Source: an uncultured bacterium
Lineage (GTDB): Bacteria; Patescibacteriota; Minisyncoccia; Phycocordibacterales; UBA6065
Length of the DNA stretch: 64,000 nt
Reading direction: 5' to 3'
Assembly: GCA_966243015.1 (NCBI GenBank)
Contig: CBIMES010000002.1
Coordinates: 117,458 to 181,457 of the forward strand
The notes beneath the pieces are model-generated. The model had not been told where the DNA came from, did not search any database, and was given only the letters and a program-made list of their open reading frames with translations. The translations under genes were made by a program, and so were the position numbers. Shown one piece after another: positions 13,206 through 27,847 of the stretch. How positions within the stretch are numbered: the stretch's first letter is position 1; each line of letters begins with the position of its first letter.

Positions 13206-13240
13206 AGTGAGATATACTAATGTATAAGCACGAGACACAT

Positions 13241-15670
13241 ATGAAACGCCTCCTCATCAAGATAAGCTCATCTCTCATCATCTTCTCGCTTGTAAGCTCA
13301 AATCTCTTCCTCGCACTCCCCGAGAAGGCCGAAGCCCAGGGCGCCGCCGCCTCGTGTACCGCAGGTTACGTTGCGGCAGGACTCGCTGCGCTGATGGCGG
13401 TTCCCCAGAACATCATCGGAGTACCAAAGTCGCAAGCTGGAGATACGGCCCAGAACGCAGTCACCGGAGGCAGCACGAACGCGATGTCCTTCAATAACTG
13501 CATACTCAAGCCCCTTGGCCAGATGATGGTTATCTCCCTCATCCGAAACATCGGAGCAAGCATCGTCGACTGGGTGAACAGCGGCTTTCAGGGAAAGCCG
13601 TCTTTCGTGACCGACTTCGGAGGCACCCTCCTCAACGCCGCAGACCAGGCAATCGGAAAATTCATCGAGGGAACAGAGCTAGGCTTTCTCTGTAACGACT
13701 TCTCGTTCCAGATTCGCATCGCCCTCGCGCTCAAATACAGCAAGCCGTACCGAGAGGAGATAAGGTGTACGCTTTCGGGAATAGGGGACAACGTAAACAA
13801 TTTCGTCGAAAACAACGGTGGAGCAGGCTGGAACAACTGGCTGCAGCTCACCACCGAGCCAAACAATAACGTATACGGTGCATACCTCGCGGCAGACAGC
13901 GAGCTGGCGCAGCGAGCGCTCACGGCCACGGGACTTCAGGACAAGAAGATCACGATAGGGCAGGGCTTCCTCGACTTCGAAACCTGCGATGAGTACGAGA
14001 CTCCGACCGAGGCCCAGACCCGCTACCTCGAAGAGACGAAGTCTCTCAACACGTCTTCTTCAAACAACGCCTTTGATTCAAGCATCAACGTAAACACCGA
14101 CATAAACAGCTTCGAAAATTCCGGATTTGACGACGGTAGCGGCAATAACAGCATTAACAGCAACACCTTCGACACCTCGGGAGTAAACATCCCATCGTCG
14201 CCGTCATCAGCGACTTTCGACTCAAGCTTCAGCTCAACGGCGACGCCTCAGTGTAAGCCGGGCAAGATGACCTCAAAGACCCCGGGAGGGGTAATCGCGC
14301 GCAAACTCGACTCCGTACTTGGTCAGGGAGAAATCCAGGCGGCAGTGGCAGACGAGATCGACGAGGTTATCGCAGCCACCCTTAACCAGCTCGCTACCAT
14401 GGCGATTCAGGGAGCAGGTGGACTTCTTGGTCTCTCGAAGAAAAGCTCTTCTTCGGGCTCTTCATACATAAACCGATACAGGAGCCAGTACTATTCAGGC
14501 AACAGTGGGTCAACCTCATCGGGAGTCGACACGGCCGAGGACATCTATACCGTAGACGTAGGAGCGTCATCAGCACTCGACGACTATCGAGTAAGCAACT
14601 ATGACGAGGCAAATGCCATTCTCAACAACCCAGACGACGAGGGGCTTCAGGAGATTTACGATACGACAGACGATGCCGTAAACGACGGAATTGACGGTCA
14701 GAAACAGCAGATTGACGCGATAAACAACAAGGCAAACCTCAACACGCAGCAGGAGCTCAACATAGCCCTTCTCGAAAAGACAACTCAGTCATCGGGAGAC
14801 GATGGGTCGCATGCGGTTGACGGCATCAACGACACTTCGAAGTACAAGCCCGGAACAGCGACCTCGAACCAGGACAGCGCGAACCCGTGGTGGGAGGTTG
14901 ATCTCGGCAAGGACCAGAAAATAGATGAGGTGAGAATCTGGAAGTTCAGCGGCAAGGATACGCGATACACGCTCGGAACCTTCCGTGTCATCGTCAAAAA
15001 AGAGAACGGAAACCGATGGACCAGCACTTCTATCAACAGCGCATCGACGGCAAACCCAACCAAGGTAACGGTAGGGCAGACGGGTCGCTATATTCGCATC
15101 GAGAAGAACGCCTACAGCTACTCGTGCGGAAACACGCGATTCCCTCAAACCTGCTACCACCCTCTCCAGCTCGCAGAGGTTAAGGCCATTCAGTTCATAA
15201 GCGCACCAACTGGATCGACAACAACTCCGACAACAGGAAACAATAATGACGAAGAGGAGACAACGGGAGGAGGCACGGTAACGATTCAGACGCCCTCAAT
15301 GACCCAGACGGTGCTGGCAGGGAAGGACGCCGTCCTCGGCGTCGCAGTCAACGCACCTCAGAATACGACCATACCGAGCGTCGAGGTTCGGATCACCTCA
15401 AACGGAAACCCGGCAAACTTCAGCAACGTCTTTCTTAACGCAAACCTGGGGATAAATGTCTCGGGAAAAACTGGCAACGTATCCATCGGGAACGTCCCAG
15501 CGGTCAAACTCACCAATCTCGCCGCCGGAAAATCCTATAATACAAGCCTCGTATTCTCAGGAAAGATACGAGATGACCAGAAGGGGGCTCGATACGAGAT
15601 AACCATCACCGCGCAGGACAAGGACGGAGACCCGATCAGTACTGGCACACTTGATTTTGTAGTAGAATAA
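13241..15670 (+). CDS. Large secreted protein with a C-terminal F5/8 type C (discoidin) domain, a putative surface adhesin
   Basis: Signal peptide MKRLLIKISSSLIIFSLVSSNLFLALPEKAEA. Ser/Asn-rich low-complexity middle. SHAVDGINDTSKY…NPWWEVDLGKDQKIDEVRIW…GRYIRIE matches the discoidin-fold pattern. The track ORF starts 7 codons upstream at 13220. Confidence 0.6.
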   Translation: MKRLLIKISSSLIIFSLVSSNLFLALPEKAEAQGAAASCTAGYVAAGLAALMAVPQNIIGVPKSQAGDTAQNAVTGGSTNAMSFNNCILKPLGQMMVISLIRNIGASIVDWVNSGFQGKPSFVTDFGGTLLNAADQAIGKFIEGTELGFLCNDFSFQIRIALALKYSKPYREEIRCTLSGIGDNVNNFVENNGGAGWNNWLQLTTEPNNNVYGAYLAADSELAQRALTATGLQDKKITIGQGFLDFETCDEYETPTEAQTRYLEETKSLNTSSSNNAFDSSINVNTDINSFENSGFDDGSGNNSINSNTFDTSGVNIPSSPSSATFDSSFSSTATPQCKPGKMTSKTPGGVIARKLDSVLGQGEIQAAVADEIDEVIAATLNQLATMAIQGAGGLLGLSKKSSSSGSSYINRYRSQYYSGNSGSTSSGVDTAEDIYTVDVGASSALDDYRVSNYDEANAILNNPDDEGLQEIYDTTDDAVNDGIDGQKQQIDAINNKANLNTQQELNIALLEKTTQSSGDDGSHAVDGINDTSKYKPGTATSNQDSANPWWEVDLGKDQKIDEVRIWKFSGKDTRYTLGTFRVIVKKENGNRWTSTSINSASTANPTKVTVGQTGRYIRIEKNAYSYSCGNTRFPQTCYHPLQLAEVKAIQFISAPTGSTTTPTTGNNNDEEETTGGGTVTIQTPSMTQTVLAGKDAVLGVAVNAPQNTTIPSVEVRITSNGNPANFSNVFLNANLGINVSGKTGNVSIGNVPAVKLTNLAAGKSYNTSLVFSGKIRDDQKGARYEITITAQDKDGDPISTGTLDFVVE

Positions 15671-15675
15671 GGAGG

Positions 15676-17949
15676 ATGAGAAAGCTCCTCTCTCCATACA
15701 ACCTTATAACGGTCTTGCTCGTTGGAGTGAGTGTGTTTGCCTTGCCCCAGTTTGCCCATGCGGCAATCTGGGACGGCATCCTCAACGGTCTCAATTTCGG
15801 CGCAAATTGGTTCTACGGCCTTATCGCCAAGGTGTTCTGGTGGGGAACCATTCCTCTGACCAGCTGGGTGCTCTGGCTCGTGGGAGTCATGATAGACGGC
15901 ATCATCGCCCTGTCTTCTGACCCGTCTTTCTACAACGCGCCCGCCATATCAGCGTCATGGGGGATAGTCCGCGACGTTTGTAACATGCTGTTCATATTCA
16001 TCCTCATCTACGAGGGAATACGAACCATTCTTAACCTCGGCAACATGGTGAGCGTGAAGACCACCATCGCAGGAGTCATCCTTGCGGCCGTATTCATCAA
16101 CTTCAGCCTCTTCGCGACCAAAGTCGTTATCGACGTCAGCAACATAACCGCAGCATGGTTCATACAGGGCGTTAAGAACGTCGGGGGTACGGAAAGCATC
16201 AGCGATGCAGTCGTCGCATCGCTTCAGATGAAGAAACTCGTCCAGAACAAGGACTACGGCAGGGGAGCGATGACCAAGGAGTCCTTTGTGGCGGGATTGG
16301 CGATGACCGTCCTCAACTGCGTGGCGATATACGTGATGTTCAAAGTCTTCTTCCTCCTTCTCGGAAGGCTCATCACCTTCATGTTCCTCCTCGTTACCGC
16401 ACCAATCGGCTTTGTCGGCCCCCTTCTGCCTCAGCTCAAGAAATACGCCGAGAAGTGGTGGAACGAACTGAACTCGATGGCCATAATGGCGCCAATGTTC
16501 TTCCTGATGCTCTATATCACCCTGTTCATTATCGATCAGGTGGACACCTTCGTGTTCGGAGGAGCGGGATCGGCAGACCCCGTGACCGGATCGAGCTTCG
16601 CCCCGACGAACTACATCATGTTCGCGATCATCATCGCCATGCTGCTCAAGGTACTTGAGATAACCGAGGAATACAGCGGCGAAATGGCAGGGAAGATAGG
16701 TGAGCTGTTCAAGAGCAGCGTGGGCGTGGCCCTCGGTGGCGTAACCGCTGTGGGAGGTGTCATCGGCCGACAGACCCTCGGAAGGGCCGCATTTAACATC
16801 ACTCAAGATGACAAGAAGATGGGCGCACTTCGATCAGAGGCGGCCACAAGCCTGTTCGGCAAAGTGAAGCTTGCCGCAGTTACCAAGGGCGCGTCATCGA
16901 GCTTTGATGCTCGAGCCACAACCGTCGGAGGAAAAGCGTTGGGTGCCTTCAATCCAAAAATAAGCGTTGCCGGTATCTCTGTTGACGCCTCTAAGGTTGG
17001 AAAGACCGAAAGCGGTGGATTTAAAGCTGGTGCAGAGGCATTCGCCAAGAAAGAGAAGGACTGGGCGGAGAAAAATCTCGGCAAGGGCGCAGCAGGGGAG
17101 ATCAATCGAATGCGATTCTCTGAGAGCATGCAGAAGGGAACCCTTCTCACGAATTACAACAAGCTCGCCAATGCTGGTGTTGGCAAGAACGCTTACAAGG
17201 ATGCCTATAGGGATATAGAGAAGGCCGCTCGAGACAACTTCCGAAAGAAGACACTTGAGGATGCAAAGAAGGGCACCAAGGACATCAGCAACAAGATCGT
17301 GGACGAACAGATGGCAATCTACCAGATGGAGGAGGCTATCAAGTCAAATAACAACGACCAGATTAACGCCGCTCTTGAAACAGAGAAGAATAGAATCGAG
17401 GGCATCTGGTCCGAGATGGAGAAAAATGCCCTTGAGAAAAACAAGGCCGCACATATCGAATACAGCCTCACTCAGGTGGAGAAGAGGGTTGCGGAGCCGG
17501 GTCCAGTCGGTGAAGCGGCAAGGGCAACCAAGACATCACTTGAAAAAGAGCTTGCTGATTTGAGGACAAATATGACCGCAGACGAAAAGAATAAGGCAAG
17601 CGAGGAGGCGGAAAAACTCAGATCATACAAAGATTACAAGGAGAAACAGGTCGATGCCGTTAAGTCTGCGATTGAGGAGTCAAACCCTGTCGCAAAGAAG
17701 GAACTCACCAAGGGAGTCATCGGGGTCATAAAGACCAAGAGGATTGGCGAGAGAGAGGAATTCAAAGATGAGGAGGGGAAGAAAAAGAAAGTCGCCCCTA
17801 AGGGAACCCTCAACTGGGAACTCGACAAGAAGAAAACCAGCCTCAAGGAGGCCCAGGAGGAACTCGATGCGATAGAAGGAAAGAAAGAGGAGAAGAAGGA
17901 GGAAAAGAAAGAGGAGAAGAAAGAAGAAGGGGATAGCAAAAAGAAATAA
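15676..17949 (+). CDS. VirB6/TrbL-like polytopic membrane protein with a long charged coiled-coil C-terminal tail
   Basis: GGAGG RBS 6-8 nt upstream. Signal/TM N-terminus, at least 6 predicted TM helices in the first 330 aa, then a roughly 400-aa Lys/Glu-rich tail ending in EEKKEEKKEEKKEEKKEE. It sits upstream of PrgI/VirB4 homologs. Confidence 0.5.
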   Translation: MRKLLSPYNLITVLLVGVSVFALPQFAHAAIWDGILNGLNFGANWFYGLIAKVFWWGTIPLTSWVLWLVGVMIDGIIALSSDPSFYNAPAISASWGIVRDVCNMLFIFILIYEGIRTILNLGNMVSVKTTIAGVILAAVFINFSLFATKVVIDVSNITAAWFIQGVKNVGGTESISDAVVASLQMKKLVQNKDYGRGAMTKESFVAGLAMTVLNCVAIYVMFKVFFLLLGRLITFMFLLVTAPIGFVGPLLPQLKKYAEKWWNELNSMAIMAPMFFLMLYITLFIIDQVDTFVFGGAGSADPVTGSSFAPTNYIMFAIIIAMLLKVLEITEEYSGEMAGKIGELFKSSVGVALGGVTAVGGVIGRQTLGRAAFNITQDDKKMGALRSEAATSLFGKVKLAAVTKGASSSFDARATTVGGKALGAFNPKISVAGISVDASKVGKTESGGFKAGAEAFAKKEKDWAEKNLGKGAAGEINRMRFSESMQKGTLLTNYNKLANAGVGKNAYKDAYRDIEKAARDNFRKKTLEDAKKGTKDISNKIVDEQMAIYQMEEAIKSNNNDQINAALETEKNRIEGIWSEMEKNALEKNKAAHIEYSLTQVEKRVAEPGPVGEAARATKTSLEKELADLRTNMTADEKNKASEEAEKLRSYKDYKEKQVDAVKSAIEESNPVAKKELTKGVIGVIKTKRIGEREEFKDEEGKKKKVAPKGTLNWELDKKKTSLKEAQEELDAIEGKKEEKKEEKKEEKKEEGDSKKK
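17875..17932 (+). repeat. Short tandem purine-rich repeat encoding (K/E)EEKK units at the 3' end of the VirB6-like gene
   Basis: gaggagaagaaggaggaaaagaaagaggagaagaaagaagaagg has GAR-GAR periodicity. Confidence 0.6.
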
Positions 17950-17951
17950 TC

Positions 17952-18611
17952 ATGGACAAAGAACTTCAAACCCGATTTGATTCGCTCCCTGCCGACATAC
18001 AGACGGCGCTTCAGTCGACTGACATCATCGAGAAACTCCAGGCCATCGGAAGAGCCCATGATCTGCACACCGATCAGCTTGGGGGACTGGAAGCATGTGT
18101 GAGCAGAATCATGCTCGGCATAGATAAGACCGATGATTTTGTCGAGAGCATTGAAAACAACCTTAATGTAACGACGGATGATGCCATAAACATAGCGACG
18201 GAGGTAAACACGACCATATTCCTCCCCGTCAGGGAATCCCTCATGAAAATGCAGGCCGCTGGAACAGAAACCCCCGCAATAAGCAACGAACCGACCGTCG
18301 ACGAACACCCCATGAAAGCGGACATCCTCGCCGAGATAGAGGATCCGAAGCCGGTGGCTCAGCCTATATCGTCGATACGACCCGCACCAACCCCCGCAAC
18401 CCCCGTAAACACAGCACTCCCGACAATTGAACCGTCACATCTTCCAACCACCGCATCTCAGCCGAAACCGACCCCGACATTCCAGACTCCGGCACCAAAA
18501 CCCCAGAGCTCCAGTGTCACCAACGAGTTCATAGCGGGGAAGATGACCGAGACCGTGAATATGCCGCCTCAGAAATACAGCGCAGACCCTTACAGGGAAC
18601 CGCTCAACTAG
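17952..18611 (+). CDS. Hypothetical soluble protein with a Pro/Thr-rich C-terminal half (locus member)
   Basis: The start is 3 nt after the upstream stop, suggesting translational coupling. No TM helix. PAPTPATP… proline-rich tail. Confidence 0.45.
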   Translation: MDKELQTRFDSLPADIQTALQSTDIIEKLQAIGRAHDLHTDQLGGLEACVSRIMLGIDKTDDFVESIENNLNVTTDDAINIATEVNTTIFLPVRESLMKMQAAGTETPAISNEPTVDEHPMKADILAEIEDPKPVAQPISSIRPAPTPATPVNTALPTIEPSHLPTTASQPKPTPTFQTPAPKPQSSSVTNEFIAGKMTETVNMPPQKYSADPYREPLN

Positions 18612-18619
18612 GCGAAAAT

Positions 18620-18651
18620 AAAAGGCTCAGTCCACTGAGCCTTTTATTTTT
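18620..18651 (+). terminator. Rho-independent terminator with an adjacent TATAAT -10 element
   Basis: AAAGGCTCAG-tccac-TGAGCCTTTT-ATTTTTG followed by TGTGTATAAT at 18651-18660. Confidence 0.7.
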
Positions 18652-18666
18652 GTGTATAATGAACTC

Positions 18667-19113
18667 ATGCGATTCCAGGTTCCTCAGTTCATCGAGGTGG
18701 AGGACAAGATCTTCGGCCCCCTCACCATCAAGCAGTTCATCTACCTCGTTGGAGGCGCGGGACTTTCCTTTATTGCCTACACTCTCATAGGCAACATATT
18801 CATCAGCGTCATCTTCATCCTGCCGATCATGGGCCTTTCGCTCGCCCTGGCGTTCTATAAGGTCAACAACAAGCCGCTCATCAACGTCATCGAGGCCGCA
18901 TTCAACTACTTCGTGAGCAACAAGCTCTATATCTGGAAGAAAATCGACAAGCCAATAGAAAATAAGGCCCGGGAGAACCCAGCAGGGGACCTGACCTCAA
19001 ACTTCTACATACCAAAGCTGTCTGACTCGAAGCTCAAGGATCTCACCTGGAGCCTCGACATCAAGCAGAGCGCGAACCCAGCGCAGAACCAACAGGGCAA
19101 GAAAACATTTTAG
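18667..19113 (+). CDS. PrgI-family (VirB3-like) small membrane protein
   Basis: MRFQVPQFIEVEDKIFGPLTIKQFIYLVGGAGLSFIAY… matches the PrgI family pattern (vP.dl...edKiffgLt.rQ..yl). It has two TM helices and sits immediately upstream of a VirB4 homolog, as prgI-prgJ does. The track ORF starts at 18652 (GTG). ATG 18667 is preferred and lies only about 6 nt after TATAAT, so the mRNA may be leaderless. Confidence 0.6.
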   Translation: MRFQVPQFIEVEDKIFGPLTIKQFIYLVGGAGLSFIAYTLIGNIFISVIFILPIMGLSLALAFYKVNNKPLINVIEAAFNYFVSNKLYIWKKIDKPIENKARENPAGDLTSNFYIPKLSDSKLKDLTWSLDIKQSANPAQNQQGKKTF

Positions 19114-19130
19114 GCGGTATACTATAGCTC

Positions 19131-19766
19131 ATGGCGCTTAACGCGAAGACAACACAGGAGTTCGTTCCGATAAAGGAAATCCGACAGGGAATCGTCATCC
19201 TCCGCGACGACTCTCTGCGAGGCGTCGTCATGGCGTCATCGCTCAACTTCGCCCTCAAATCGGCCGACGAGCAGCAGTCAATCATCTTTCAATTCCAGAA
19301 CTTCATCAACTCGCTCGACTTCTCGGTGCAGATCTTTATCCAGTCTCGTAAGCTCGACATCAGGCCATACATCGCCCTTCTCGAGAACAGGCTTCGCGAG
19401 CAGATGAGCGATCTCCTCAAGATCCAGACGCGCGAGTACATCGAGTTCGTGAAGAACTTCACCGAGAACTCGAACATCATGACAAAGACCTTCTTCATCG
19501 TCGTACCGTACAGCCCGACGGTCGTCTCGAAGGGAAGCGTGCCGAACCCGCTCGGCAAGAAGAAGACGGGGGAGGAGACCGCCGAGCGAAGACTCGAGCT
19601 CTTCGAGGAGCATCGCAGCCAGCTCGAGCAGCGTATCAGCGTCGTCACCCAAGGTCTTAGCCGCTGCGGAATCCGCAGCGTCGAGCTGGGAACGGAGGAG
19701 ATCGTCGAGCTCTTCTACAAGATCTTCAATCCGGGCGACACCGAGAAGCCTATACCTCTCAACTAA
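19131..19766 (+). CDS. VirB4/TrbE/PrgJ-like ATPase, N-terminal domain fragment (211 aa)
   Basis: TQEFVPIKEIRQGIVILRDDSLRGVVMASSLNFALKSADEQQSIIFQFQNFINSLDFSVQIFIQSRKLDI is the characteristic N-terminus of Gram-positive-type VirB4 proteins. It ends at TAA 19764-19766, 4 nt before the next ATG. Confidence 0.7.
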   Translation: MALNAKTTQEFVPIKEIRQGIVILRDDSLRGVVMASSLNFALKSADEQQSIIFQFQNFINSLDFSVQIFIQSRKLDIRPYIALLENRLREQMSDLLKIQTREYIEFVKNFTENSNIMTKTFFIVVPYSPTVVSKGSVPNPLGKKKTGEETAERRLELFEEHRSQLEQRISVVTQGLSRCGIRSVELGTEEIVELFYKIFNPGDTEKPIPLN

Positions 19767-19770
19767 ACAC

Positions 19771-21576
19771 ATGGGAATCTTCGATTTTCTAAAAAAGAAA
19801 GAGAATAACATCAACATCTCCCCGGTTCTTCCGCAGGAGATTTACGAGGCGGGCGTGCTCGAGCTCAAGGACGTTATCGCGCCGTCGGCCCTCAAGGTCA
19901 CGCCGCGCGAGCTTAATCTCGGAGACAAAATCGTCCGAAGCTTCTTCGTCATCTCATACCCTCGATATCTCTCAGAGTCATGGTTCGCACCGATCATCAA
20001 CCTCGACAAGGTCTTCAACATTTCCATATTTGTCCACCCCGTCGACACCGCTCGAGTTCTCCGCCAGTTCCAGAAGAAAGTGGCCGAGGTGCAGAGCCAG
20101 ATCTCCATCAGGGAGCAGAAGGGCCTCGTCCGCGACCCGATGCTCGACACCGCGTACCAGGATCTCGAGGGCCTGCGCGACCAGCTCCAGCAGGCGCAGG
20201 AGAAGCTCTTTGACGTGGGCATCTACATCTCAATCTACGCCGACAGCGACGCAGAGCTCGATAAGACTGAGAGCGAGATCAAGTCGATTCTCGAGTCAAA
20301 GCTCGTGTACGTAAAGCCGGCGCTCTTCCAGCAGGAACAGGGGTACCGCAGCAACCTACCGACGGCAAACGACGAGCTCCTTGTCCATTCCAAGCTTAAC
20401 TCAAGCCCTCTTTCGTCACTTTTCCCGTTCATATCCTTCGACCTCACCTCTGACAAGGGAATCCTCTACGGCATCAACAGGCACAACTCGTCGCTCGTGC
20501 TCTTCGATCGCTTCTCGCTCGAGAACTACAACTCGATTACCTTCGCGAAGTCAGGTTCGGGTAAGTCATACGCCACCAAGCTCGAGATTCTCCGAACGCT
20601 CATGTTCGACACCGAGGTGATCGTCATCGACCCGGAGAGGGAATACGAGTACCTTGCCGAGGCAACGGGAGGAAAGTACTTCAACATCTCCCTCAACTCC
20701 GAGCATCACATCAACCCGTTCGACCTGCCAATCCCGCGCGAGGACGAGTCGACCGCCGACGTGCTTCGCTCGAACATCATCAACCTCGTAGGACTCTTCC
20801 GCATAATGATGGGAGGCCTGACCCCCGAGGAAGACGCGCTCATCGATAAGGCGATCACCGAAACCTACGCGCTCAAGGACATCACGCCTGACTCAGACTT
20901 CAGGAACACCGAACCGCCGCTCCTGTCTGACTTCGAGCTCGTGCTTGCCGGCATGGAGGGAGGGGAGTCGCTCGTGCAGAGGCTGACCAAATACACCAAG
21001 GGAACCTGGTCTGGCTTCATCAACAGGCCGACAAACGTCGACATTAACGCGAAGTTCATCGTCTTCTCGCTCCGAGACATGGAGGAGGAGCTCAAGCCCG
21101 TCGCGATGTACATCGTGACCCACTACATCTGGAACGCGGTGCGCAAGAACCTCAAGAAGCGCCTGCTCGTCATCGACGAGGCGTGGTGGATGATGAAGTC
21201 GGACGACACCGCGTCGTTCCTCCTCGGACTCGCCAAGCGAGGCCGAAAGTACTTCCTCGGACTGGCGACCATTACCCAGGACGTGGACGACTTCCTCAAG
21301 TCGCCGTACGGAATGCCGATTATCACCAACTCGTCGATACAGATGCTGCTCAAGCAGTCCCCATCGTCGATCGACAAGCTTCAGACGGTCTTCAACCTCA
21401 CGGAAGAGGAAAAATACCTCCTTCTCGAGTCAGACGTGGGAGAGGGAATCTTCTTCGTGGGACTTAAGCACGTGGCCATCAAGATTATCGCCTCGTACAC
21501 CGAGGACCAAATCATCACCTCTGACCCTTCGCAGATTCTCGCCATCAAGGAAGCGAAAAGAAACCTTCAGGGGTAG
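19771..21576 (+). CDS. VirB4/TrbE/PrgJ-like ATPase, ATPase portion (601 aa)
   Basis: …LKDVIAPSALKV…YPRYLSESWF…, Walker A FAKSGSGKSYA, Walker B LLVIDEAWWMM, and C-terminal …GLATITQDVDDF… form the VirB4 (CagE_TrbE_VirB) architecture. Together with 19131..19766 it totals about 812 aa, typical of a single VirB4. Confidence 0.8.
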   Translation: MGIFDFLKKKENNINISPVLPQEIYEAGVLELKDVIAPSALKVTPRELNLGDKIVRSFFVISYPRYLSESWFAPIINLDKVFNISIFVHPVDTARVLRQFQKKVAEVQSQISIREQKGLVRDPMLDTAYQDLEGLRDQLQQAQEKLFDVGIYISIYADSDAELDKTESEIKSILESKLVYVKPALFQQEQGYRSNLPTANDELLVHSKLNSSPLSSLFPFISFDLTSDKGILYGINRHNSSLVLFDRFSLENYNSITFAKSGSGKSYATKLEILRTLMFDTEVIVIDPEREYEYLAEATGGKYFNISLNSEHHINPFDLPIPREDESTADVLRSNIINLVGLFRIMMGGLTPEEDALIDKAITETYALKDITPDSDFRNTEPPLLSDFELVLAGMEGGESLVQRLTKYTKGTWSGFINRPTNVDINAKFIVFSLRDMEEELKPVAMYIVTHYIWNAVRKNLKKRLLVIDEAWWMMKSDDTASFLLGLAKRGRKYFLGLATITQDVDDFLKSPYGMPIITNSSIQMLLKQSPSSIDKLQTVFNLTEEEKYLLLESDVGEGIFFVGLKHVAIKIIASYTEDQIITSDPSQILAIKEAKRNLQG

Positions 21577-21624
21577 GGGAGCGGTGGATTGGCGCGCGGG
21601 GTTTCGTGCTACAATATACTCGTC

Positions 21625-22623
21625 ATGCTTCTCAAAAGGATATCTCTTATCTTTGCTTTTGTCGGTGTACTCCTCTCATGCTCCTTTGCCCATGCTCAGT
21701 CTATTCCAGGCATACAGAATCCTCTCGTCGTGAGCGTCATACCGACCGAACCGAGGGCCAATCAGACGGTCTATATCGGCATTCAGAGCTACAGCCTTGA
21801 TCTCGACAAGGCTCTCATCACTTGGTACGTAGACGGCAAGGAAACATCGAGCGGGGTCGGCCTCAAGGAATTCAGGGTACTCGCCGGACCGTCGGGTTCG
21901 ACCAAGACGGTCGACGTAAAGGTGGCAACCGTGGGCACAGGAACCTTCTCCGATACCGTCGTCATCAGGCCGGCAGACGTTGGCCTCCTCTGGGAATCTG
22001 ACACCTACACCCCTCCTTTCTACCAGGGAAAGGCTCTTCATTCTTACAACGGCTCCTTCAAAGTTACCGCGTTGCCAGAGCTCTACACTTCGGCGGGCGC
22101 AAAGATTGATGCGAAGGACTTGATCTACACCTGGAAAAAGAACGGTGAGATTCAGGGTGCCGCATCTGGATACGGCAAGAACACCTATATCGGCAGCCAG
22201 ACGAGCTACCTCAGGGAAGGGGAGGATATCTCCGTTGAGGTGTCAGCGCCGCGAGACAACGTGGTCGCCTCAAACAGCATCCTCATCACGCCAGCGGTGC
22301 CTTACGTATCGTTCTACGAGAAGAGCCCTCTCTACGGAATCATCTACGAAAAGAGCCTTCGCAACAGGACCAGCCTGACCAACGAGGAGGTCTCGATCAT
22401 CGCCGAGCCATTCTTCTTCTCAATTCCAAACCGAGACTCCTCGAACCTCTCGTATACCTGGACCCTCAACGGCAGCCCCCTCCCTGACTTCTCGGGAGAG
22501 AGTCTCATGACGCTCCGAAAGGCGGGCGGGGAAGCGGGAAGGGCTGATCTTCGCGTCGTCCTGCAGAACAACATGAAGCTCCTTCAGGGCGCCTCGCAGA
22601 ACCTAACCATTTTCTATGAATAA
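21625..22623 (+). CDS. Hypothetical secreted beta-rich protein (locus member)
   Basis: Signal peptide MLLKRISLIFAFVGVLLSCSFAHAQS. No TM helix afterwards. No family assignment. Confidence 0.45.
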   Translation: MLLKRISLIFAFVGVLLSCSFAHAQSIPGIQNPLVVSVIPTEPRANQTVYIGIQSYSLDLDKALITWYVDGKETSSGVGLKEFRVLAGPSGSTKTVDVKVATVGTGTFSDTVVIRPADVGLLWESDTYTPPFYQGKALHSYNGSFKVTALPELYTSAGAKIDAKDLIYTWKKNGEIQGAASGYGKNTYIGSQTSYLREGEDISVEVSAPRDNVVASNSILITPAVPYVSFYEKSPLYGIIYEKSLRNRTSLTNEEVSIIAEPFFFSIPNRDSSNLSYTWTLNGSPLPDFSGESLMTLRKAGGEAGRADLRVVLQNNMKLLQGASQNLTIFYE

Positions 22624-23821
22624 AACCCGAGCACTCGCCATCGCCTCAGCAAGCATCGTCACGCTCTTCGCGGGCTGGGCAACTGTCGCGTCGGCACAGA
22701 CAACCGAATACGTTCCCCTCACGACGGTTCCCGGCCTCTTCAAGCAGGGAAGCTCGACCAACCCCGTCACCATCATCAAGGGAATCTACGGACTGGCCAT
22801 CGGCATCGGCAGCGTCATCGCCACTGTCATGCTCATCATCGCCGGCTTCGAGTATATGTACCAGGAGTCAATCACGGGAAAGTCACAGGCAAAGGAGCGC
22901 ATCACCAATGCGTTTCTCGGTCTCTTGGTCATCCTTGGATCGTACATACTCCTCCGAACTATCAACCCAGCACTTGTAGACTTCAACCTCACACTCCAGG
23001 GTGGCAGCAATCGACTCAAGGGACTGATTGCCGACAAGGCATATGACGATCTAAGGGAAAGGCAGAAGGCCTTGCAGGAAGATCAGACCGCCATCAACAA
23101 GCTCAAGGCAAATGGCGTGGAAATGGAGAAGCTGATTGAGCAGAAAGAGGACACCATGCGCGGCTACGACTGCGAGAACGAGGATAAGGCTGATTGCGAG
23201 AGAATCGAGAAAGAGATCGCCGAGCTTGAAACGCGAGTAAAAGAGAACACGGACAACATCGCCGCAACGCAAATAGAGCAGGGAAAGGGGATTGCCTCGA
23301 CCTATGTGTACGAACTCCTCGAAACCAGGTATTGGGAGCTCGCCGGCAAGCTCAGACAGGACAACGGTCAGGGGGAGCTTGAGTTCGACGAATTCCTTCA
23401 GGCAGCCTCAGCCGCATACAAGAGCTCAATCGACGGCGTGGAGAAACAGCTGGTCGCCATAAAAGCCGTACAGACGAACGATGCCGGGATCCTGAAACAA
23501 AAGACGGATACCATCAGAGACCTCGAGAACGAGAAAAAATATCTCGCCCTCGCCGCTACGTACGTCATTTGGCAGAACAGCTATGACAATAACGGCCTCG
23601 ATCTCACGGATCTAGCGAACAGCATCAAGTACAGGACTGATGCCTACACAAAGAAGCTCAAGGAGGCGGGTTTCAGCAACGAGTTCATCGAGGAGCGCGT
23701 AAAACGCGACAGAACCAATCTCATAACCGCATTCTCGATGTCTGAGGAGGTACAGGAAGACTGCGCATCAAATACCGATGTGCTCCCGGCCGACTACGCA
23801 CAGCTCTGCTCAAACGCATAA
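22616..23821 (+). CDS. VirB2/TrbC-like T4SS pilin-like protein with a roughly 270-aa C-terminal coiled-coil extension
   Basis: Signal peptide (…VASA|Q) is followed by two hydrophobic helices (IYGLAIGIGSVIATVMLIIAGFEYMY and ITNAFLGLLVILGSYILLRTI), the classic T4SS pilin topology. The C-terminal part is coiled-coil-like. The start overlaps the upstream gene by 8 nt. Confidence 0.5.
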   Translation: MNKTRALAIASASIVTLFAGWATVASAQTTEYVPLTTVPGLFKQGSSTNPVTIIKGIYGLAIGIGSVIATVMLIIAGFEYMYQESITGKSQAKERITNAFLGLLVILGSYILLRTINPALVDFNLTLQGGSNRLKGLIADKAYDDLRERQKALQEDQTAINKLKANGVEMEKLIEQKEDTMRGYDCENEDKADCERIEKEIAELETRVKENTDNIAATQIEQGKGIASTYVYELLETRYWELAGKLRQDNGQGELEFDEFLQAASAAYKSSIDGVEKQLVAIKAVQTNDAGILKQKTDTIRDLENEKKYLALAATYVIWQNSYDNNGLDLTDLANSIKYRTDAYTKKLKEAGFSNEFIEERVKRDRTNLITAFSMSEEVQEDCASNTDVLPADYAQLCSNA

Positions 23822-23827
23822 AACAAC

Positions 23828-25060
23828 ATGTCGAAAAAAACATTCACGCTCTTCATCATAGTACTCCTGGGAATCATCGCCTTCCTCGGCTGGTTCTTTT
23901 TCTTCCGCGCGAATGAGTCAACGCTTCCCGGTGACCCCAACCAGCCGACCGACCTCTTTCCCTTTGGGCAGGGGAGCACAACCCCTGATGGAAACAACAC
24001 GGGGCAAACGGGCAGCTCGACGGGGCAGATAGACATCTCGGGTGACACCCCACGCCTTCCTCGACTAAGACAAATCTGGCGAGACCAGACCGCAGGCGCC
24101 ACGTTCTTTCCAGGCACGGGAACCACGACAAGCGTGAGGTTCGTCGACAGAGCAACGGGTCACATCTACGAGTCTCCTATCGAGGCGACGGGGGAGACCA
24201 AGATATCGAACGTCACCATCCCACAGGTGCACGAAGCGCTTTGGGCATCAAACGGAAACGAGCTCATCTTCCGCTACCTCAGGAGCGATTCGATGACGAT
24301 ACAGTCGTTCTATGGAACGCTCGCCACATCGAGCGCCACTACAACCATGACGGTGGAAGGTTACTTCTTGCCCGCAAACATCCGCGACATCTCGGTATCA
24401 GGCGACAGGATTCTCTATTTCAACCCAGCCGTTCAGATCGGAAGCCTCGTCGACGCACGCGTCGACGGCACAGGAAGACGCGTGGTCATGAGCTCCGAGG
24501 CACGAGACTGGTCTCTCTCATACACCAACACAAAAACCGCATTCCTCGAAACCAGGCCAAGCGGTCTCGTAAAGGGATTCGGCTACGCCCTTAACCTCGC
24601 CACGGGAGCGACTTCAAAAATAGCTGGTGACATACTCGGTCTCACCGGAACCATAAACCCAGCAGGGGACAGAGCGCTTATGTCAGCGCAGGAGGGCGGA
24701 AGCATCGTCACGGCAGGCTACGACATGACGTCAAAGAGGGCCTCCACCCTTTCCATCAAAACCCTTTCCGACAAATGCGTGTGGAGCAGGAAAAAGGCCG
24801 AGATGGCATACTGCGCAGTGCCCTCAAACATTCCGTCGGGAACATATCCTGATGACTGGTATCGAGGCGACACGAGCTTCTCCGATCGACTCTGGACCGT
24901 CGACCTCTCGACAGGGGAGACCGATCTCATCATGGACCCATCCTATGAGACCGGCCAGAGCATGGACATCATGAAAATCAGCGTGGACAGCGGGGAGGAG
25001 TACATTACATTCACCAACAAGAAGGACATGAGCCAGTGGCTGCTGAGGATCGAGGAATAA
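23828..25060 (+). CDS. Hypothetical N-terminally anchored extracytoplasmic beta-rich protein (last locus gene)
   Basis: TM helix FTLFIIVLLGIIAFLGWFFFF, then a Gly/Thr-rich linker and a roughly 330-aa domain. A bidirectional terminator follows. Confidence 0.45.
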   Translation: MSKKTFTLFIIVLLGIIAFLGWFFFFRANESTLPGDPNQPTDLFPFGQGSTTPDGNNTGQTGSSTGQIDISGDTPRLPRLRQIWRDQTAGATFFPGTGTTTSVRFVDRATGHIYESPIEATGETKISNVTIPQVHEALWASNGNELIFRYLRSDSMTIQSFYGTLATSSATTTMTVEGYFLPANIRDISVSGDRILYFNPAVQIGSLVDARVDGTGRRVVMSSEARDWSLSYTNTKTAFLETRPSGLVKGFGYALNLATGATSKIAGDILGLTGTINPAGDRALMSAQEGGSIVTAGYDMTSKRASTLSIKTLSDKCVWSRKKAEMAYCAVPSNIPSGTYPDDWYRGDTSFSDRLWTVDLSTGETDLIMDPSYETGQSMDIMKISVDSGEEYITFTNKKDMSQWLLRIEE

Positions 25061-25073
25061 GAAAGCCCCAAAA

Positions 25074-25105
25074 GAAAGCCGCATCGATCGATGCGGCTTT
25101 CTTTT
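25074..25105. terminator. Bidirectional terminator between the T4SS-like locus and yidC
   Basis: AAAGCCGCATCG-atcg-ATGCGGCTTTCTTTTTC, with a T-run on the opposite strand as well. Confidence 0.75.
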
Positions 25106-25106
25106 T

Positions 25107-25862
25107 CTATCTAACCTTCACCGCCAAATTCTCCTTCGCCTCCTTCTCCCGCGCCATCTGCCGTCGGATGTACAGCTCCTGCCCGATCATGAACAGGTTG
25201 CTCGTCACCCAGTACAGGGCGAGGGCCGAGGCCACGTGGTAGGCGATGAAGAGGATCATGATAGGGAAGACGTACTTCATCTGAGTCTGCATGTTGCGGG
25301 CGAAGTCCTCCTGGAAGTTGCCGTTGCCGGTCTTGGGGGCAGCCTTTGGTATCGAGAGCCTTATCTGGAAGTACTGGGAGACCGCCGCGAGAACCGCGAG
25401 AGCGAAGCTTTTGGTACCCATGTCTATGAGACCAAGGAAGTTCATGTTAACAACCTCAGGAACCTTAACGAACGAGTAGAGGAGACTCGGGTCAGGCGCC
25501 GAAATGCCTGACGAATAAAAGATTCGATACAAGGCGAAGAAGATAGGAAGCTGGAGAAGGATAAGGAAGATGCCGGCAAACGGGTTTATGCCCTTTGCCT
25601 TGTAGAAGGCCATGACCTGAAGCGCCTGCGCCTGCCGATCGTCCTTGTACTTCTCCTTGATGGCATTCATCTCGGGCTCGTACATCTTGAGGGCAACCTG
25701 GGTGCGGGCAGACTTTCTCGAAAGAGGGAAGAGGATGACCTTAACGATAACCGTGAAGAGGATAATGACGACGCCTGCGTCGAGGAAGGGGAGGTGGCCG
25801 GCGAGGAATACAAGACCGTTATAGAGGGGCTCGTAGATGAACGTAGTATAAAGATAATGCAT
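25107..25862 (-). CDS. yidC: Membrane protein insertase YidC/Oxa1 (short form)
   Basis: 251 aa and multi-TM. Its position downstream of rnpA and rpmH is the conserved rpmH-rnpA-yidC arrangement. Hydrophobic core motifs are typical of the 60-kDa IMP family. Confidence 0.8.
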   Translation of the reverse strand: MHYLYTTFIYEPLYNGLVFLAGHLPFLDAGVVIILFTVIVKVILFPLSRKSARTQVALKMYEPEMNAIKEKYKDDRQAQALQVMAFYKAKGINPFAGIFLILLQLPIFFALYRIFYSSGISAPDPSLLYSFVKVPEVVNMNFLGLIDMGTKSFALAVLAAVSQYFQIRLSIPKAAPKTGNGNFQEDFARNMQTQMKYVFPIMILFIAYHVASALALYWVTSNLFMIGQELYIRRQMAREKEAKENLAVKVR

Positions 25863-25915
25863 ATGATTATTGTGCGGGCTAAGCCATAGTAGCCTATTTC
25901 AGACCCTTACTCAAT

Positions 25916-26242: not shown

Positions 26243-26245
26243 GGG

Positions 26246-26503: not shown

Positions 26504-27847
26504 ATGGACAACAAGAAACTCTGGGAAAGCGTGTTAGGTGCACTGGAACTTCAGGTATCCAAGGCAACCTTCAGCACCTGGCTGAGAGAGACCCACATCC
26601 ACAAACAGGATGACGGCGTCATCTACCTCTCGGTACCGAGTATCTTCGCCAAGGACTGGCTCTCCAACAAGTTCCACAAGGTTATCCTCAAATGCCTCAG
26701 GGACTTCGGCAACGACGTGAGGTCGCTCGAATACGTCATCGCCAAGGCCCCCGAGAAAAAGCAGGAGGTCGAGGAACCAAAGAAGCCGGCACCGACCTAC
26801 GAGCTACCCCTCCAGGATCTCTATATAAGCAAAGAAGACAACCTCAACCCGAAATACACCTTCGACACCTTTGTCATCGGTCCCTTTAACGAGCTCGCCC
26901 ACGCCGCGGCGCAGGCGGTAATGAAGAATCCCGGCATCGCCTACAACCCACTCTTCATCTACGGGGACACGGGAAGAGGGAAGACCCACCTCATCCAGGC
27001 CGTCGGCAACTACATCAAGCACAACCACCCCTCAAAGAAGGTGTTCTACATCACCTCAGAGCGCTTTGCCGTCGATTACATGAACTCGCTTCAGCTTGGA
27101 AAGGCGAACCAGTTCAAGGAAAAGTACCGAAAGTACGACGTCCTCATCATGGACGACGTGCAGTTCTTCTCGAGCAAGGAGAAGTCACAGGAGGAGTTCT
27201 TCCATCTCTTTAACACCCTCCACGAGAACAACAAGCAGCTCATCTGCTCTTCGGACAAGCACCCGAACCACATCCCCGACCTCGAAGACCGCATAAAATC
27301 ACGCTTCAGCGCGGGAATGATTGTCGACGTGTCCGCCCCAGACCACGACTCACGCCTCGCCATCCTCAGAAACAAGACCCTCACGCAGAGAATCAACCTC
27401 TCGGACGAGACCATCGAATTTCTCGCCAAGACCGTGGAGGGAAACGTGCGAGAACTCGAAGGCATCGTGAACTCCATCGCCATGCAGACCCATATCCGGG
27501 GAAGGGAGCTCAACCTCATCGAGATCAAGAATCTCATCAAGAACAGCACGAAGCCGAAGAAAACTGTGTCTATCAAGGACGTGGTGAAGGTCGTCTGCGA
27601 CTTTTACAACATAAACGAGAATTCCGTATACGAGAAAACCCGAAAAAAGGAGGTCGTTAAGCCACGACAGGTCATCATGTACATCCTCAGGGAGGACCTG
27701 AACATCTCATACCCTTCAATTGGCGAGAAAATGGGAGGCCGCGACCACACCACCGTCATACATTCTTGCGAAAAGATAAAGGAGGATATAAAGTCTGACC
27801 AAACGCTCATACAGGAGGTCAATCACATCCGATCCCTCATCTCATAA
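26504..27847 (+). CDS. dnaA: Chromosomal replication initiator protein DnaA
   Basis: N-terminal domain, AAA+ Walker A (NPLFIYGDTGRGKTHL), sensor motifs, and C-terminal DNA-binding helix-turn-helix (…VVKPRQVIMYILRED…). 447 aa. Confidence 0.95.
   Translation: MDNKKLWESVLGALELQVSKATFSTWLRETHIHKQDDGVIYLSVPSIFAKDWLSNKFHKVILKCLRDFGNDVRSLEYVIAKAPEKKQEVEEPKKPAPTYELPLQDLYISKEDNLNPKYTFDTFVIGPFNELAHAAAQAVMKNPGIAYNPLFIYGDTGRGKTHLIQAVGNYIKHNHPSKKVFYITSERFAVDYMNSLQLGKANQFKEKYRKYDVLIMDDVQFFSSKEKSQEEFFHLFNTLHENNKQLICSSDKHPNHIPDLEDRIKSRFSAGMIVDVSAPDHDSRLAILRNKTLTQRINLSDETIEFLAKTVEGNVRELEGIVNSIAMQTHIRGRELNLIEIKNLIKNSTKPKKTVSIKDVVKVVCDFYNINENSVYEKTRKKEVVKPRQVIMYILREDLNISYPSIGEKMGGRDHTTVIHSCEKIKEDIKSDQTLIQEVNHIRSLIS

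What the first reader, a model, noticed from the sequence alone, without database searches (positions are those of the whole stretch)
19131..21576. VirB4 ATPase encoded as two adjacent ORFs (N-domain 211 aa + ATPase 601 aa) separated by TAA-N4-ATG
The first ORF carries the characteristic VirB4 N-terminal domain (TQEFVPIKEIRQG…SLNFALKS…EQQSIIFQFQNF…). The second carries the VirB4 middle region and Walker A/B ATPase domain. Together they total about 812 aa, the size of a single VirB4. They are in different frames, with a stop at 19764-19766 and an ATG at 19771. Frame 1 stays open for about 90 nt upstream of the ATG, so a single-base indel would fuse them. No homopolymer lies at the junction. The ORFs may therefore be a genuine split into two polypeptides, a frameshift mutation (pseudogene), or an assembly error. 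A naturally split VirB4 would be unusual.
Basis: seen in the sequence. Interest (0 to 1): 0.6.

Follow-up and report, generated by a model that had tools for sequence, protein, structure and literature searches.

The report
Naturally two-gene VirB4 secretion ATPase
The two adjacent genes are a genuine, conserved and already described arrangement in these ultra-small (Patescibacteria) bacteria, in which the first ~200 residues of the type IV secretion ATPase VirB4 are made as a separate small protein (TrsD-like), so this is not a broken gene or an assembly error.

Summary
ORF1 (19131-19766, 211 aa) and ORF2 (19771-21576, 601 aa) are separated by TAA + 4 nt and lie in different frames.

It is not a pseudogene, an assembly error or a programmed frameshift:
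- The same two-gene arrangement is present in all 79 related species examined.
- The spacer runs from a 4-nt overlap to 496 nt, all three relative frames occur, and sometimes a whole extra gene sits in between.
- Both ORFs are under strong purifying selection (dN/dS about 0.1 and 0.05).

ORF1 folds (pLDDT 91) like the N-terminal part of R388 TrwK/VirB4. It is a remote homologue of TrsD/TraD of staphylococcal plasmids pGO1/pSK41, where the same small gene precedes the VirB4 gene and the break falls at the same position. ORF2 passes the curated cut-off of the CD1110 VirB4 family from profile position 185 onward.

A sister clade (Colwellbacteria-like) encodes both parts colinearly as one ~795-aa protein, and its model superposes on full-length TrwK.

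The TrsD-plus-VirB4 arrangement in Patescibacteria, next to dnaA, was published in 2025 (PMC12102498). TrsD is reported there as essential in Ca. Southlakia epibionticum. Verdict: real, ordinary for this lineage and already known; low interest.

The parts
18652..19113 (+). PrgI-family (VirB3-like) small membrane protein, 153 aa, directly upstream of ORF1
   Evidence: Pfam PF12666 PrgI, E 2.4e-10, 41.3 bits against a cut-off of 27. It has the same position as PrgI before PrgJ in pCF10 and as the 135-aa gene before trsD in pSK41.
19131..19766 (+). ORF1, 211 aa: stand-alone N-terminal subdomain of VirB4 (TrsD/TraD-like protein)
   Evidence: NCBIfam matches to the N-terminal parts of VirB4 profiles, and to TrsD/TraD at 22.3 bits, below its cut-off of 200. 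hhalign against pSK41 TrsD covers the full length, E 1.7e-4. AlphaFold model pLDDT 90.8. The 14 best PDB fold matches are all TrwK/VirB4 chains. dN/dS 0.07-0.13.
19764..19770 (+). Junction: TAA stop of ORF1 plus 4-nt spacer ACAC before the ATG of ORF2
   Evidence: In 80 genomes (79 related species plus this window) the spacer ranges from -4 to +496 nt (mode 4 nt). Relative frames are +1 in 39, +2 in 27 and 0 in 14. No promoter-like or terminator-like site above chance.
19771..20451 (+). ORF2 residues 1-227: rest of the VirB4 N-terminal domain. The conserved N-terminal peptide MGIFDFL is followed by the region homologous to PrgJ residues 215 onward
   Evidence: BLASTP: ORF2 22-564 = PrgJ 215-772, E 2e-42. 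Pfam TraC_F_IV positions 297-373 match ORF2 121-198. The first codons of ORF2 are conserved in the junction alignment.
20452..21522 (+). ORF2 residues 228-584: VirB4 C-terminal ATPase domain (Walker A at 20548-20571, Walker B at 21163-21186)
   Evidence: phmmer against the PDB: 4AG5 (Thermoanaerobacter pseudethanolicus VirB4 C-terminal domain) E 3.2e-43; TrwK 446-735, E 1.7e-5. Pfam P-loop_TraG, AAA_10, DUF87. Motif coordinates.
19771..21576 (+). ORF2 as a whole, 601 aa: VirB4-like ATPase lacking the first ~185 profile positions
   Evidence: NCBIfam NF045971 (CD1110 family VirB4), 377 bits against a cut-off of 325, profile positions 185-733 of 752. dN/dS 0.04-0.05.
22616..23821 (+). Protein with a T4SS pilin domain, 401 aa (same gene cluster, context)
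   Evidence: Pfam PF18895 T4SS_pilin, 30.8 bits against a cut-off of 26.6. Weak NCBIfam matches to conjugation pilin-like proteins.
26504..27847 (+). dnaA (context). The cluster lies next to yidC, dnaA and dnaN, i.e. near the replication origin
   Evidence: Pfam Bac_DnaA and related domains. yidC at 25107-25862 (-), dnaN at 28121-29221 (+), ksgA at 9864-10658 (+). This matches the chromosomal context reported for Paceibacteria in PMC12102498.

Best explanation
ORF1 and ORF2 are two real, separately translated genes of a chromosomal, monoderm-type type IV secretion system of a Patescibacteria (Paceibacteria-like) bacterium. ORF1 is a TrsD/TraD-like protein that corresponds to the first ~200 residues (the first compact subdomain) of the VirB4 N-terminal domain. 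ORF2 is the rest of VirB4: the remainder of the N-terminal domain plus the Walker A/B ATPase domain. Shown here: colinearity with full-length VirB4, the VirB4-like fold of ORF1, conservation of the split across species, purifying selection on both ORFs, the same breakpoint in Bacillota plasmids, and the existence of a naturally fused clade. Inferred: the two polypeptides associate non-covalently to rebuild a complete VirB4 protomer. Also inferred: both are made from one transcript, with ORF2 translated by termination-reinitiation coupling across the 4-nt spacer. This genome mostly lacks Shine-Dalgarno motifs, and a TATACT box sits 7 nt before the ORF1 ATG.
For: 1. Split conserved. All 79 related species whose contig extends far enough have two ORFs. 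Spacers run from -4 to +496 nt, all three relative frames occur, and the stops are TAA, TAG or TGA.
2. In 5-6 species a complete extra gene lies between the two ORFs.
3. In the databases the 120 best ORF1 homologues are 206-216 aa and the 120 best ORF2 homologues are 561-620 aa. 149 of the 150 best 50%-identity representatives of ORF1 are stand-alone proteins of 146-443 aa.
4. dN/dS is 0.07-0.13 for ORF1 and 0.04-0.05 for ORF2.
5. ORF1 and ORF2 map colinearly and without overlap on VirB4 profiles and on a natural 797-aa fusion, P0298: ORF1 1-206 = residues 1-214, ORF2 27-596 = residues 225-795.
6. The ORF1 model has pLDDT 90.8, and its 14 best PDB matches are all TrwK/VirB4 (prob 1.00); the next hit has prob 0.25.
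7. The model of the fused homologue aligns to TrwK over about 820 columns, TM 0.64, E 6e-27. pLDDT dips to 63-65 at residues 211-230, i.e. at the site of the split.
8. The breakpoint is the same in pSK41 TrsD/TrsE, B. cereus pJ7_3 and a Pontibacillus plasmid.
9. Literature: TrsD homologues are the most abundant T4SS component in Patescibacteria, 1,664 of them lie next to virB4, and TrsD is essential in Ca. Southlakia epibionticum (PMC12102498).
Against: - No direct evidence here for a physical ORF1-ORF2 (or ORF1-PrgI) complex, for co-transcription or for translational coupling.
- The structure tools returned no coordinates, so the interface could not be inspected.
- ORF1 scores far below the curated NCBIfam TrsD/TraD cut-off (22.3 against 200 bits). 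The hhalign probability to pSK41 TrsD is only about 50%, so the TrsD link is remote.
- A profile of ORF1 relatives does not significantly match the single sequence of PrgJ.
- According to the 2025 paper, no function has ever been assigned to TrsD.
Confidence: 0.9

Rival explanations
1. Frameshift pseudogene: a recent indel broke a single 812-aa virB4 gene, and one or both pieces are non-functional.
For: The two ORFs are in different frames only 4 nt apart. The ORF2 frame is open for 288 nt upstream, so one indel could join them. Fused relatives exist.
Against: The split is present in 79 of 79 related species at 62-84% ORF1 identity, with different spacers and frames. Synonymous sites are saturated while dN stays at 0.05-0.16, giving dN/dS of 0.04-0.13. 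The ORF2 ATG and N-terminal peptide MGIFD, and the ORF1 C-terminal NPGDTEKPI, are conserved.
Confidence: 0.01
2. Sequencing or assembly error: a spurious indel in this contig creates an apparent split.
For: The source is probably a metagenome-assembled genome. Reads could not be inspected.
Against: Identical proteins are recorded on 8 contigs (ORF1) and 6 contigs (ORF2) from several sources, and hundreds of independent assemblies have the same two ORF lengths. There is no homopolymer at the junction.
Confidence: 0.01
3. Programmed +1 ribosomal frameshift or stop-codon readthrough produces a single full-length VirB4 from the two ORFs.
For: ORF2 is in the +1 frame with a long open overlap. ARAGORN called a tRNA with anticodon TTA in the window.
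Against: The relative frame is +1 in 39, +2 in 27 and 0 in 14 genomes. Spacers reach 496 nt, some with an intervening gene. No shift site is conserved. Reading through the TAA adds only 13 codons before the next stop and never enters the ORF2 frame. The tRNA is most likely tRNA-Lys(UUU), mis-registered by one base.
Confidence: 0.01
4. ORF1 is an independent T4SS accessory protein that derives from a VirB4 N-terminus but no longer works as part of the ATPase (for example an assembly chaperone or regulator), rather than a stoichiometric subunit that completes VirB4.
For: TrsD has no assigned function. In Gracilibacteria, TrsD homologues are mostly not next to virB4 (PMC12102498). Many ORF1 relatives carry long low-complexity C-terminal extensions of up to about 230 aa that a mere VirB4 subdomain would not need. 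In some species an own TATAAT-like box lies in the spacer before ORF2, which allows uncoupled expression.
Against: Natural fusions are colinear at exactly this point across a whole clade. The fused model superposes on full-length TrwK. The breakpoint is the same in Bacillota and Patescibacteria. Adjacency is tight (67 of 80 spacers are 24 nt or less).
Confidence: 0.07

Closest known systems
TrsD/TraD + TrsE/TraE (VirB4) of the staphylococcal conjugative plasmids pGO1/pSK41 (pGO1 subclass of the MPF-FATA T4SS class)
   Same: - A small protein (227 aa) is encoded directly upstream of a shortened VirB4 ATPase (672 aa) and downstream of a small VirB3-position gene.
- ORF1 aligns to TrsD over its full length (hhalign E 1.7e-4; HMM E 1.5e-3 at Z=1e6).
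- The breakpoint maps to the same place on a fused reference.
   Different: - Similarity is very remote: 22.3 bits against the 200-bit NCBIfam cut-off.
- pSK41 is a conjugative plasmid with a relaxase and a coupling protein. The cluster here is chromosomal, next to dnaA, with a VirB2-like pilin-domain gene.
- No relaxase or coupling protein was identified among the cluster ORFs that were scanned. The window was not searched exhaustively.
The Patescibacteria T4SS described by Quinonero-Coronel et al. 2025 (PMC12102498) and studied genetically in Ca. Southlakia epibionticum ML1 (Wang et al. 2023, cited there)
   Same: - Same gene set: TrsD homologue + VirB4 + PrgI/VirB3 + pilin-like protein.
- Same chromosomal context (dnaA, dnaN, ksgA nearby).
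- The source names of the homologues are Paceibacterota, Parcubacteria and Taylorbacteria.
   Different: Nothing substantive; this window is another instance. In the text searched here, the paper does not discuss the fused TrsD-VirB4 clade, the common breakpoint or the junction anatomy.
Single-polypeptide VirB4 ATPases: PrgJ of pCF10 (796 aa), TrwK of R388 (823 aa), and the Colwellbacteria-like fused form (775-807 aa)
   Same: - ORF1 + ORF2 total 812 aa.
- ORF2 22-564 = PrgJ 215-772.
- The TrwK Walker A lies near residue 446. The corresponding position here is 211 + 254 = 465.
- The ORF1 fold matches TrwK.
- The fused relative P0298 is 47% identical to ORF1 and 57% identical to ORF2.
   Different: Here the chain is interrupted after the first subdomain of the N-terminal domain. 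This is inside the Pfam TraC_F_IV N-terminal region (P0298 residues 169-394 span it), not at the boundary between the N-terminal domain and the ATPase domain. ORF2 carries an extra conserved ~26-residue N-terminal peptide that the fused form lacks.

Membership tests
VirB4 ATPase, CD1110 family (NCBIfam NF045971) | Whole-protein score at or above the curated cut-off (325 bits) | tested here: met
   ORF2 scores 377 bits, E 1.8e-112.
VirB4 ATPase, CD1110 family (NCBIfam NF045971) | Coverage of the whole profile, including the N-terminal ~185 positions, in one polypeptide | tested here: not met
   ORF2 covers positions 185-733 only. Positions 2-118 are matched by ORF1 (E 7.5e-5). The profile is covered only by the two proteins together.
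VirB4 ATPase (general) | Walker A and Walker B motifs and a C-terminal domain homologous to a solved VirB4 structure | tested here: met
   KSGSGKSY at aa 260-267 and LLVIDEAW at aa 465-472. 4AG5 E 3.2e-43; TrwK E 1.7e-5.
VirB4 N-terminal domain (fold) | ORF1 adopts the fold of the N-terminal part of a solved VirB4 | tested here: met
   Model pLDDT 90.8. Foldseek against the PDB: ranks 1-14 are all TrwK/VirB4 chains, prob 1.00, TM (query) 0.50-0.57; rank 15 has prob 0.25. The tool does not report which TrwK residues are aligned. That it is the N-terminal part follows from the full-length alignment of the fused homologue.
TrsD/TraD family (NCBIfam NF041427) | Score at or above the curated cut-off (200 bits) | tested here: not met
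   22.3 bits, E 9.5e-5, profile positions 13-142 of 201. ORF1 is a remote homologue, not a member by this model.
TrsD/TraD family (NCBIfam NF041427) | Full-length homology to pSK41 TrsD | tested here: inconclusive
   hhalign of a 75-sequence profile against TrsD: 172 aligned columns (profile columns 11-204 against TrsD 35-217), E 1.7e-4, but probability only 49.6%. hmmsearch E 1.5e-3 at Z=1e6.
TrsD as used for Patescibacteria (CONJScan/MacSyFinder MPF-FATA TrsD profile, PMC12102498) | Match to that specific profile | not testable with these tools
   The profile is not available here. The paper reports 2,272 such homologues in Patescibacteria, 1,664 of them next to virB4.
TrsD + VirB4 gene pair (synteny) | Small gene immediately upstream of the VirB4 gene on the same strand, after a VirB3-like gene, with the break at the homologous position | tested here: met
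   Window order is PrgI, ORF1, ORF2. pSK41 has a 135-aa gene, then trsD, then the VirB4 gene. All breakpoints map to residues ~197-225 of the fused reference.
Programmed ribosomal frameshift | Constant frame relation and a conserved shift site across relatives | tested here: not met
   Frames are +1, +2 and 0 in 39, 27 and 14 genomes. Spacers run from -4 to +496 nt.
Pseudogene | Relaxed selection, or a lineage-restricted disruption | tested here: not met
   dN/dS 0.04-0.13. The split is present in 79 of 79 related species.

The most novel reading that the evidence does not exclude
Split and fused states of the same VirB4 coexist among close Patescibacteria lineages, with one shared breakpoint that also occurs in Bacillota plasmids. 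A rough tree nests the fused (Colwellbacteria-like) clade inside the split forms, which suggests an ancient fission followed by a secondary re-fusion. If so, keeping the N-subdomain as a separate protein would be a selected feature. It might, for example, let the cell assemble or gate the essential secretion machine through a separately supplied VirB3-binding module. It would then be more than a neutral gene-structure variant. The fission/fusion polarity and any such regulatory role were not addressed in the passages I read of the literature found here.
Probability: 0.12. Interest if true: 0.35.

Novelty: already known. Interest (0 to 1): 0.15.

Why it matters
For annotation: the pair should not be flagged as a pseudogene or merged. 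ORF1 should be named a TrsD-like VirB4 N-terminal domain protein, and ORF2 a VirB4-like ATPase.

For biology: the Patescibacteria T4SS is essential for the epibiotic lifestyle in the one system tested. The natural split marks a subdomain boundary in VirB4 that could be exploited to express and study the VirB3-binding module separately from the motor. None of this is a new kind of system.

Tried and rejected
- Sequence search of ORF1 against the PDB found nothing meaningful (one MerR hit, E 0.24). The fold search was needed.
- A profile of ORF1 relatives against the single PrgJ sequence gave only a non-significant, though colinear, 49-column match.
- BLASTP of the small proteins against PrgJ was not significant.
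- The local Pfam copy has no model that matches ORF1. The precomputed label PF26593 carried by all homologues could not be named.
- Paper searches for TrsD/TrsE returned almost only unrelated acronyms. The main text of Guglielmini 2014 does not name TrsD, so the statement about homology to the VirB4 N-terminus is cited from the 2025 paper.
- The promoter and terminator scan around the junction found nothing above the shuffled expectation.
- I checked whether the 'tRNA-Stop(tta)' called by ARAGORN could suppress the TAA of ORF1. I rejected this. The anticodon loop reads c-t-TTT-a-a when the acceptor stem starts at 42816, which indicates tRNA-Lys. Readthrough would in any case stop after 13 codons in the wrong frame.
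- A missing Shine-Dalgarno motif before ORF2 is not informative, because only about 8 of 32 genes in the window have even a 4-mer match.
- The model of the fused homologue is only moderately confident (pLDDT 77, pTM 0.63) and no coordinates were returned, so no interface analysis was possible.
Full report
**Observation**

- ORF1 runs 19131-19766 (+, 211 aa) and ends in TAA at 19764-19766.
- After the four bases ACAC, ORF2 starts with ATG at 19771 and runs to 21576 (601 aa).
- ORF2 is in the +1 frame relative to ORF1, and no homopolymer lies at the junction.
- One numerical correction: the ORF2 frame is open for 288 nt upstream of its ATG, not about 90 nt, and it contains no start codon in that stretch.
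- The quoted motifs and the Walker A (aa 260-267) and Walker B (aa 465-472) boxes are present.

**What the two ORFs are**

Curated NCBIfam profiles place the ORFs colinearly on full-length monoderm VirB4 proteins.
- ORF1 matches positions 101-233 of the 894-position Mbov_0397 family model (E 4e-12) and positions 2-118 of the 752-position CD1110 family model (E 7.5e-5).
- ORF2 matches positions 185-733 of the CD1110 model with 377 bits, above the curated cut-off of 325.
- ORF1 also gives a weak match to the TrsD/TraD family (22.3 bits, far below the cut-off of 200).

Further evidence on ORF2:
- ORF2 residues 228-584 align to the crystallised C-terminal ATPase domain of Thermoanaerobacter pseudethanolicus VirB4 (4AG5, E 3e-43).
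- They also align to TrwK of R388 from its residue 446 onward.
- ORF2 22-564 aligns to PrgJ of pCF10 at residues 215-772.
- ORF2 therefore lacks about the first 200 residues of a normal VirB4, and ORF1 has about that size.

Further evidence on ORF1:
- An AlphaFold model built on 75 diverse relatives is confident (pLDDT 90.8, pTM 0.81).
- In a Foldseek search of the PDB its first 14 matches are all TrwK/VirB4 chains of the R388 system (probability 1.00, TM 0.50-0.57). The next match has probability 0.25.

**Is the split real?**

I fetched the homologous locus from 80 different species-level genomes, with ORF1 identity of 62-84%.
- In 79 of them the contig extends far enough, and all 79 have two separate ORFs.
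- With the window included, 80 junctions were analysed.
- The distance from the stop of ORF1 to the ATG of ORF2 ranges from a 4-nt overlap (ATGA) to 496 nt. The most common spacers are 4 nt (17 genomes, including this window) and 5 nt (12 genomes).
- ORF2 is in the +1 frame in 39 genomes, the +2 frame in 27 and the same frame in 14.
- The ORF1 stop is TAA in 65, TAG in 10 and TGA in 5.
- The C-terminal NPGDTEKPI of ORF1 and the N-terminal MGIFD of ORF2 are conserved.
- In five or six species a complete additional gene lies between the two ORFs.

Selection and database lengths point the same way.
- Between the window and its nearest relatives, synonymous sites are saturated. Non-synonymous divergence is 0.12-0.16 for ORF1 and 0.05-0.07 for ORF2.
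- Where dN/dS can be computed, it is 0.07-0.13 for ORF1 and 0.04-0.05 for ORF2.
- The 120 best ORF1 homologues are all 206-216 aa, and the 120 best ORF2 homologues are 561-620 aa. Source names include Paceibacterota, Parcubacteria and Taylorbacteria.
- Against 1.84 billion cluster representatives, ORF1 has 2,367 relatives at E <= 1e-3. Of the best 150, 149 are stand-alone proteins of 146-443 aa.

These results exclude a pseudogene, an assembly error and a programmed frameshift.

**Proof of colinearity from a natural fusion**

The one long protein among those 150 representatives is P0298 (797 aa).
- It carries an ORF1-like part at residues 1-214 (44-47% identity).
- It carries an ORF2-like part at residues 225-795 (57% identity).
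- It is not a singleton. A search with P0298 returned at least 118 clusters of 775-807 aa at 59-100% identity, many named Candidatus Colwellbacteria.
- A model of P0298 built on 70 fused relatives (pLDDT 77, pTM 0.63) aligns to full-length TrwK over about 820 columns (TM 0.64, E 6e-27).
- Its first 207 residues have the same secondary-structure order as the ORF1 model.
- Confidence dips to 63-65 at residues 211-230, the place where the split forms are interrupted.
- The Pfam TraC_F_IV model of the F-type TraC N-terminal region spans P0298 residues 169-394.

The break therefore lies between two compact subdomains inside the VirB4 N-terminal domain. It does not lie at the border between the N-terminal domain and the ATPase domain.

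**Precedents outside Patescibacteria**

A tblastn search of ORF1 against plasmids found 15 Bacillota and Actinomycetota plasmids.
- In B. cereus pJ7_3 the match is a 210-aa gene overlapping the start of a 617-aa DUF87/VirB4 gene.
- In a Pontibacillus plasmid the match is a 274-aa gene overlapping the start of a 621-aa gene annotated as CD1110-family VirB4.
- In pSK41, trsD (227 aa) precedes the 672-aa VirB4 gene by 14 nt, and a 135-aa gene sits in the VirB3 position before it.
- The ORF1 family profile aligns to pSK41 TrsD over its full length (hhalign E 1.7e-4, probability about 50%; hmmsearch E 1.5e-3 at Z=1e6).
- Mapped on the fused reference, the ATPase pieces of pSK41, pJ7_3, Pontibacillus and this window all begin to align at residues 225-234. 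Each has an unaligned leader of 26-35 residues.

The breakpoint is thus the same in all of them.

A rough neighbour-joining tree of the N-domains was rooted on the Bacillota proteins and has no support values. It places the fused clade inside the diversity of split forms. This suggests an old fission followed by a secondary re-fusion, but this is only an indication.

**Literature**

Quinonero-Coronel et al. 2025 (PMC12102498) report the following.
[quoted passage not shown] It is known from the pGO1 subclass of MPF-FATA systems and has no assigned function.
- TrsD is the most abundant T4SS component in Patescibacteria: 2,272 homologues, 1,664 of them next to virB4.
- The homologue in Ca. Southlakia epibionticum ML1 is listed as essential.
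- In Paceibacteria virB4 typically lies near dnaA, dnaN and ksgA.

The window shows exactly this context: ksgA at 9864-10658, yidC at 25107-25862, dnaA at 26504-27847 and dnaN at 28121-29221. A PrgI/VirB3-like gene lies directly upstream of ORF1, and a gene with a T4SS pilin domain lies downstream. The finding is therefore another instance of a described arrangement.

**How it most likely works**

Shown: two conserved cistrons that together contain every part of a VirB4.

Inferred:
- The TrsD-like protein binds ORF2 non-covalently and completes the N-terminal domain.
- By analogy with the R388 structure (my knowledge of Mace et al. 2022, not tested here), this part faces the membrane and contacts VirB3, whose counterpart PrgI is encoded next door.
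- Expression is probably from one transcript. There is no promoter-like or terminator-like signal above chance around the junction.
- The genome rarely uses Shine-Dalgarno motifs (about 8 of 32 genes have even a 4-mer match).
- ORF1 has a TATACT box 7 nt before its ATG, which suggests a leaderless or short-leader start.
- The 4-nt spacer fits termination-reinitiation coupling.
- Coupling is not obligatory in the family. 13 of 80 spacers are 45 nt or longer, and some 16-19-nt spacers contain a TATAAT box.

**Verdict**

Novelty: already known. Interest: low. The details that were not discussed in the passages of the papers I read are the fused Colwellbacteria-like clade, the common breakpoint and the junction anatomy.

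Noticed in passing
L039:4644-8435 and L029:4652-8437 (related loci): The VirB4 (ORF2) homologue is one uninterrupted ORF of about 1,262 aa. A ~662-aa in-frame insert sits inside the Walker A motif (GxGK | SVRGIEPV ... GMF(V/I)HN | S(F/Y)xTKLEIL) and carries LAGLIDADG-like motifs (LLGYIGAEG, YFEGDGG). It looks like an intein with a homing endonuclease in the P-loop of VirB4.
   Followed up: partly
L012, L023, L040, L050, L057 (and possibly L024), between the ORF1 and ORF2 homologues: A 114-133-aa gene is inserted on the same strand between the two VirB4 pieces. Its product resembles four-helix-bundle '23S rRNA intervening-sequence' proteins (motif ..VWQK..L...IY..T..FP..E.FGLTSQIRRA..SI.SNIAEG..). 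The family assignment is from memory and was not tested. The insertion recurs in several species.
   Followed up: partly
window 42815-42888 (+): ARAGORN calls a tRNA-Stop with anticodon TTA. Rfam confirms a good tRNA (69 bits). By inspection, starting the acceptor stem at 42816 gives the canonical U8 and an anticodon loop c-t-TTT-a-a. It is therefore most likely tRNA-Lys(UUU), not a UAA suppressor.
   Followed up: partly
proteins P0298, P0391-P0509 (no window coordinates): A whole clade named mostly Candidatus Colwellbacteria encodes the TrsD-like domain and the VirB4 ATPase as one 775-807-aa protein (at least 118 clusters at 90% identity). In a rough NJ tree it nests inside the split forms. 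Two ~600-aa proteins (P0409, P0505) and one 224-aa protein (P0308) fall among the fused ones, so the state may have changed more than once.
   Followed up: partly
window 9864-29221: The T4SS-like cluster (+ strand, 12246-25060, genes almost abutting) lies between ksgA and yidC-dnaA-dnaN, i.e. beside the presumed replication origin. This is the context reported for Paceibacteria in PMC12102498.
   Followed up: yes
window, upstream of many start codons (e.g. 12246, 13220, 19131, 28121, 43395 on the - strand): TATACT or TATAAT-like boxes lie 5-10 nt before the start codon, and Shine-Dalgarno motifs are generally absent. This suggests widespread leaderless or very short-leader mRNAs in this genome.
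   Followed up: no
proteins P0294, P0332 and other 300-443-aa representatives: Some stand-alone ORF1 relatives carry long, low-complexity Pro/Ala/Gln/Thr-rich C-terminal extensions of up to about 230 aa after the conserved domain. Their purpose is unknown.
   Followed up: no
L057:5122-7082: The N-terminus of the ORF2 homologue appears twice, in different frames: residues 1-83 in frame 1 at 63% identity, and residues 66-599 in frame 3 at 84% identity. This may be a local duplication or a frameshift in that genome.
   Followed up: no
window 13220-15670 and 15676-17949 (+): Two large proteins lie just upstream in the cluster. One is 816 aa with an F5/8 type C (galactose-binding-like) domain. The other is 757 aa, with a hydrophobic N-terminal half and a Lys/Glu-rich tail, and matches no family. 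The second could be the VirB6-like channel component, but this was not established.
   Followed up: no
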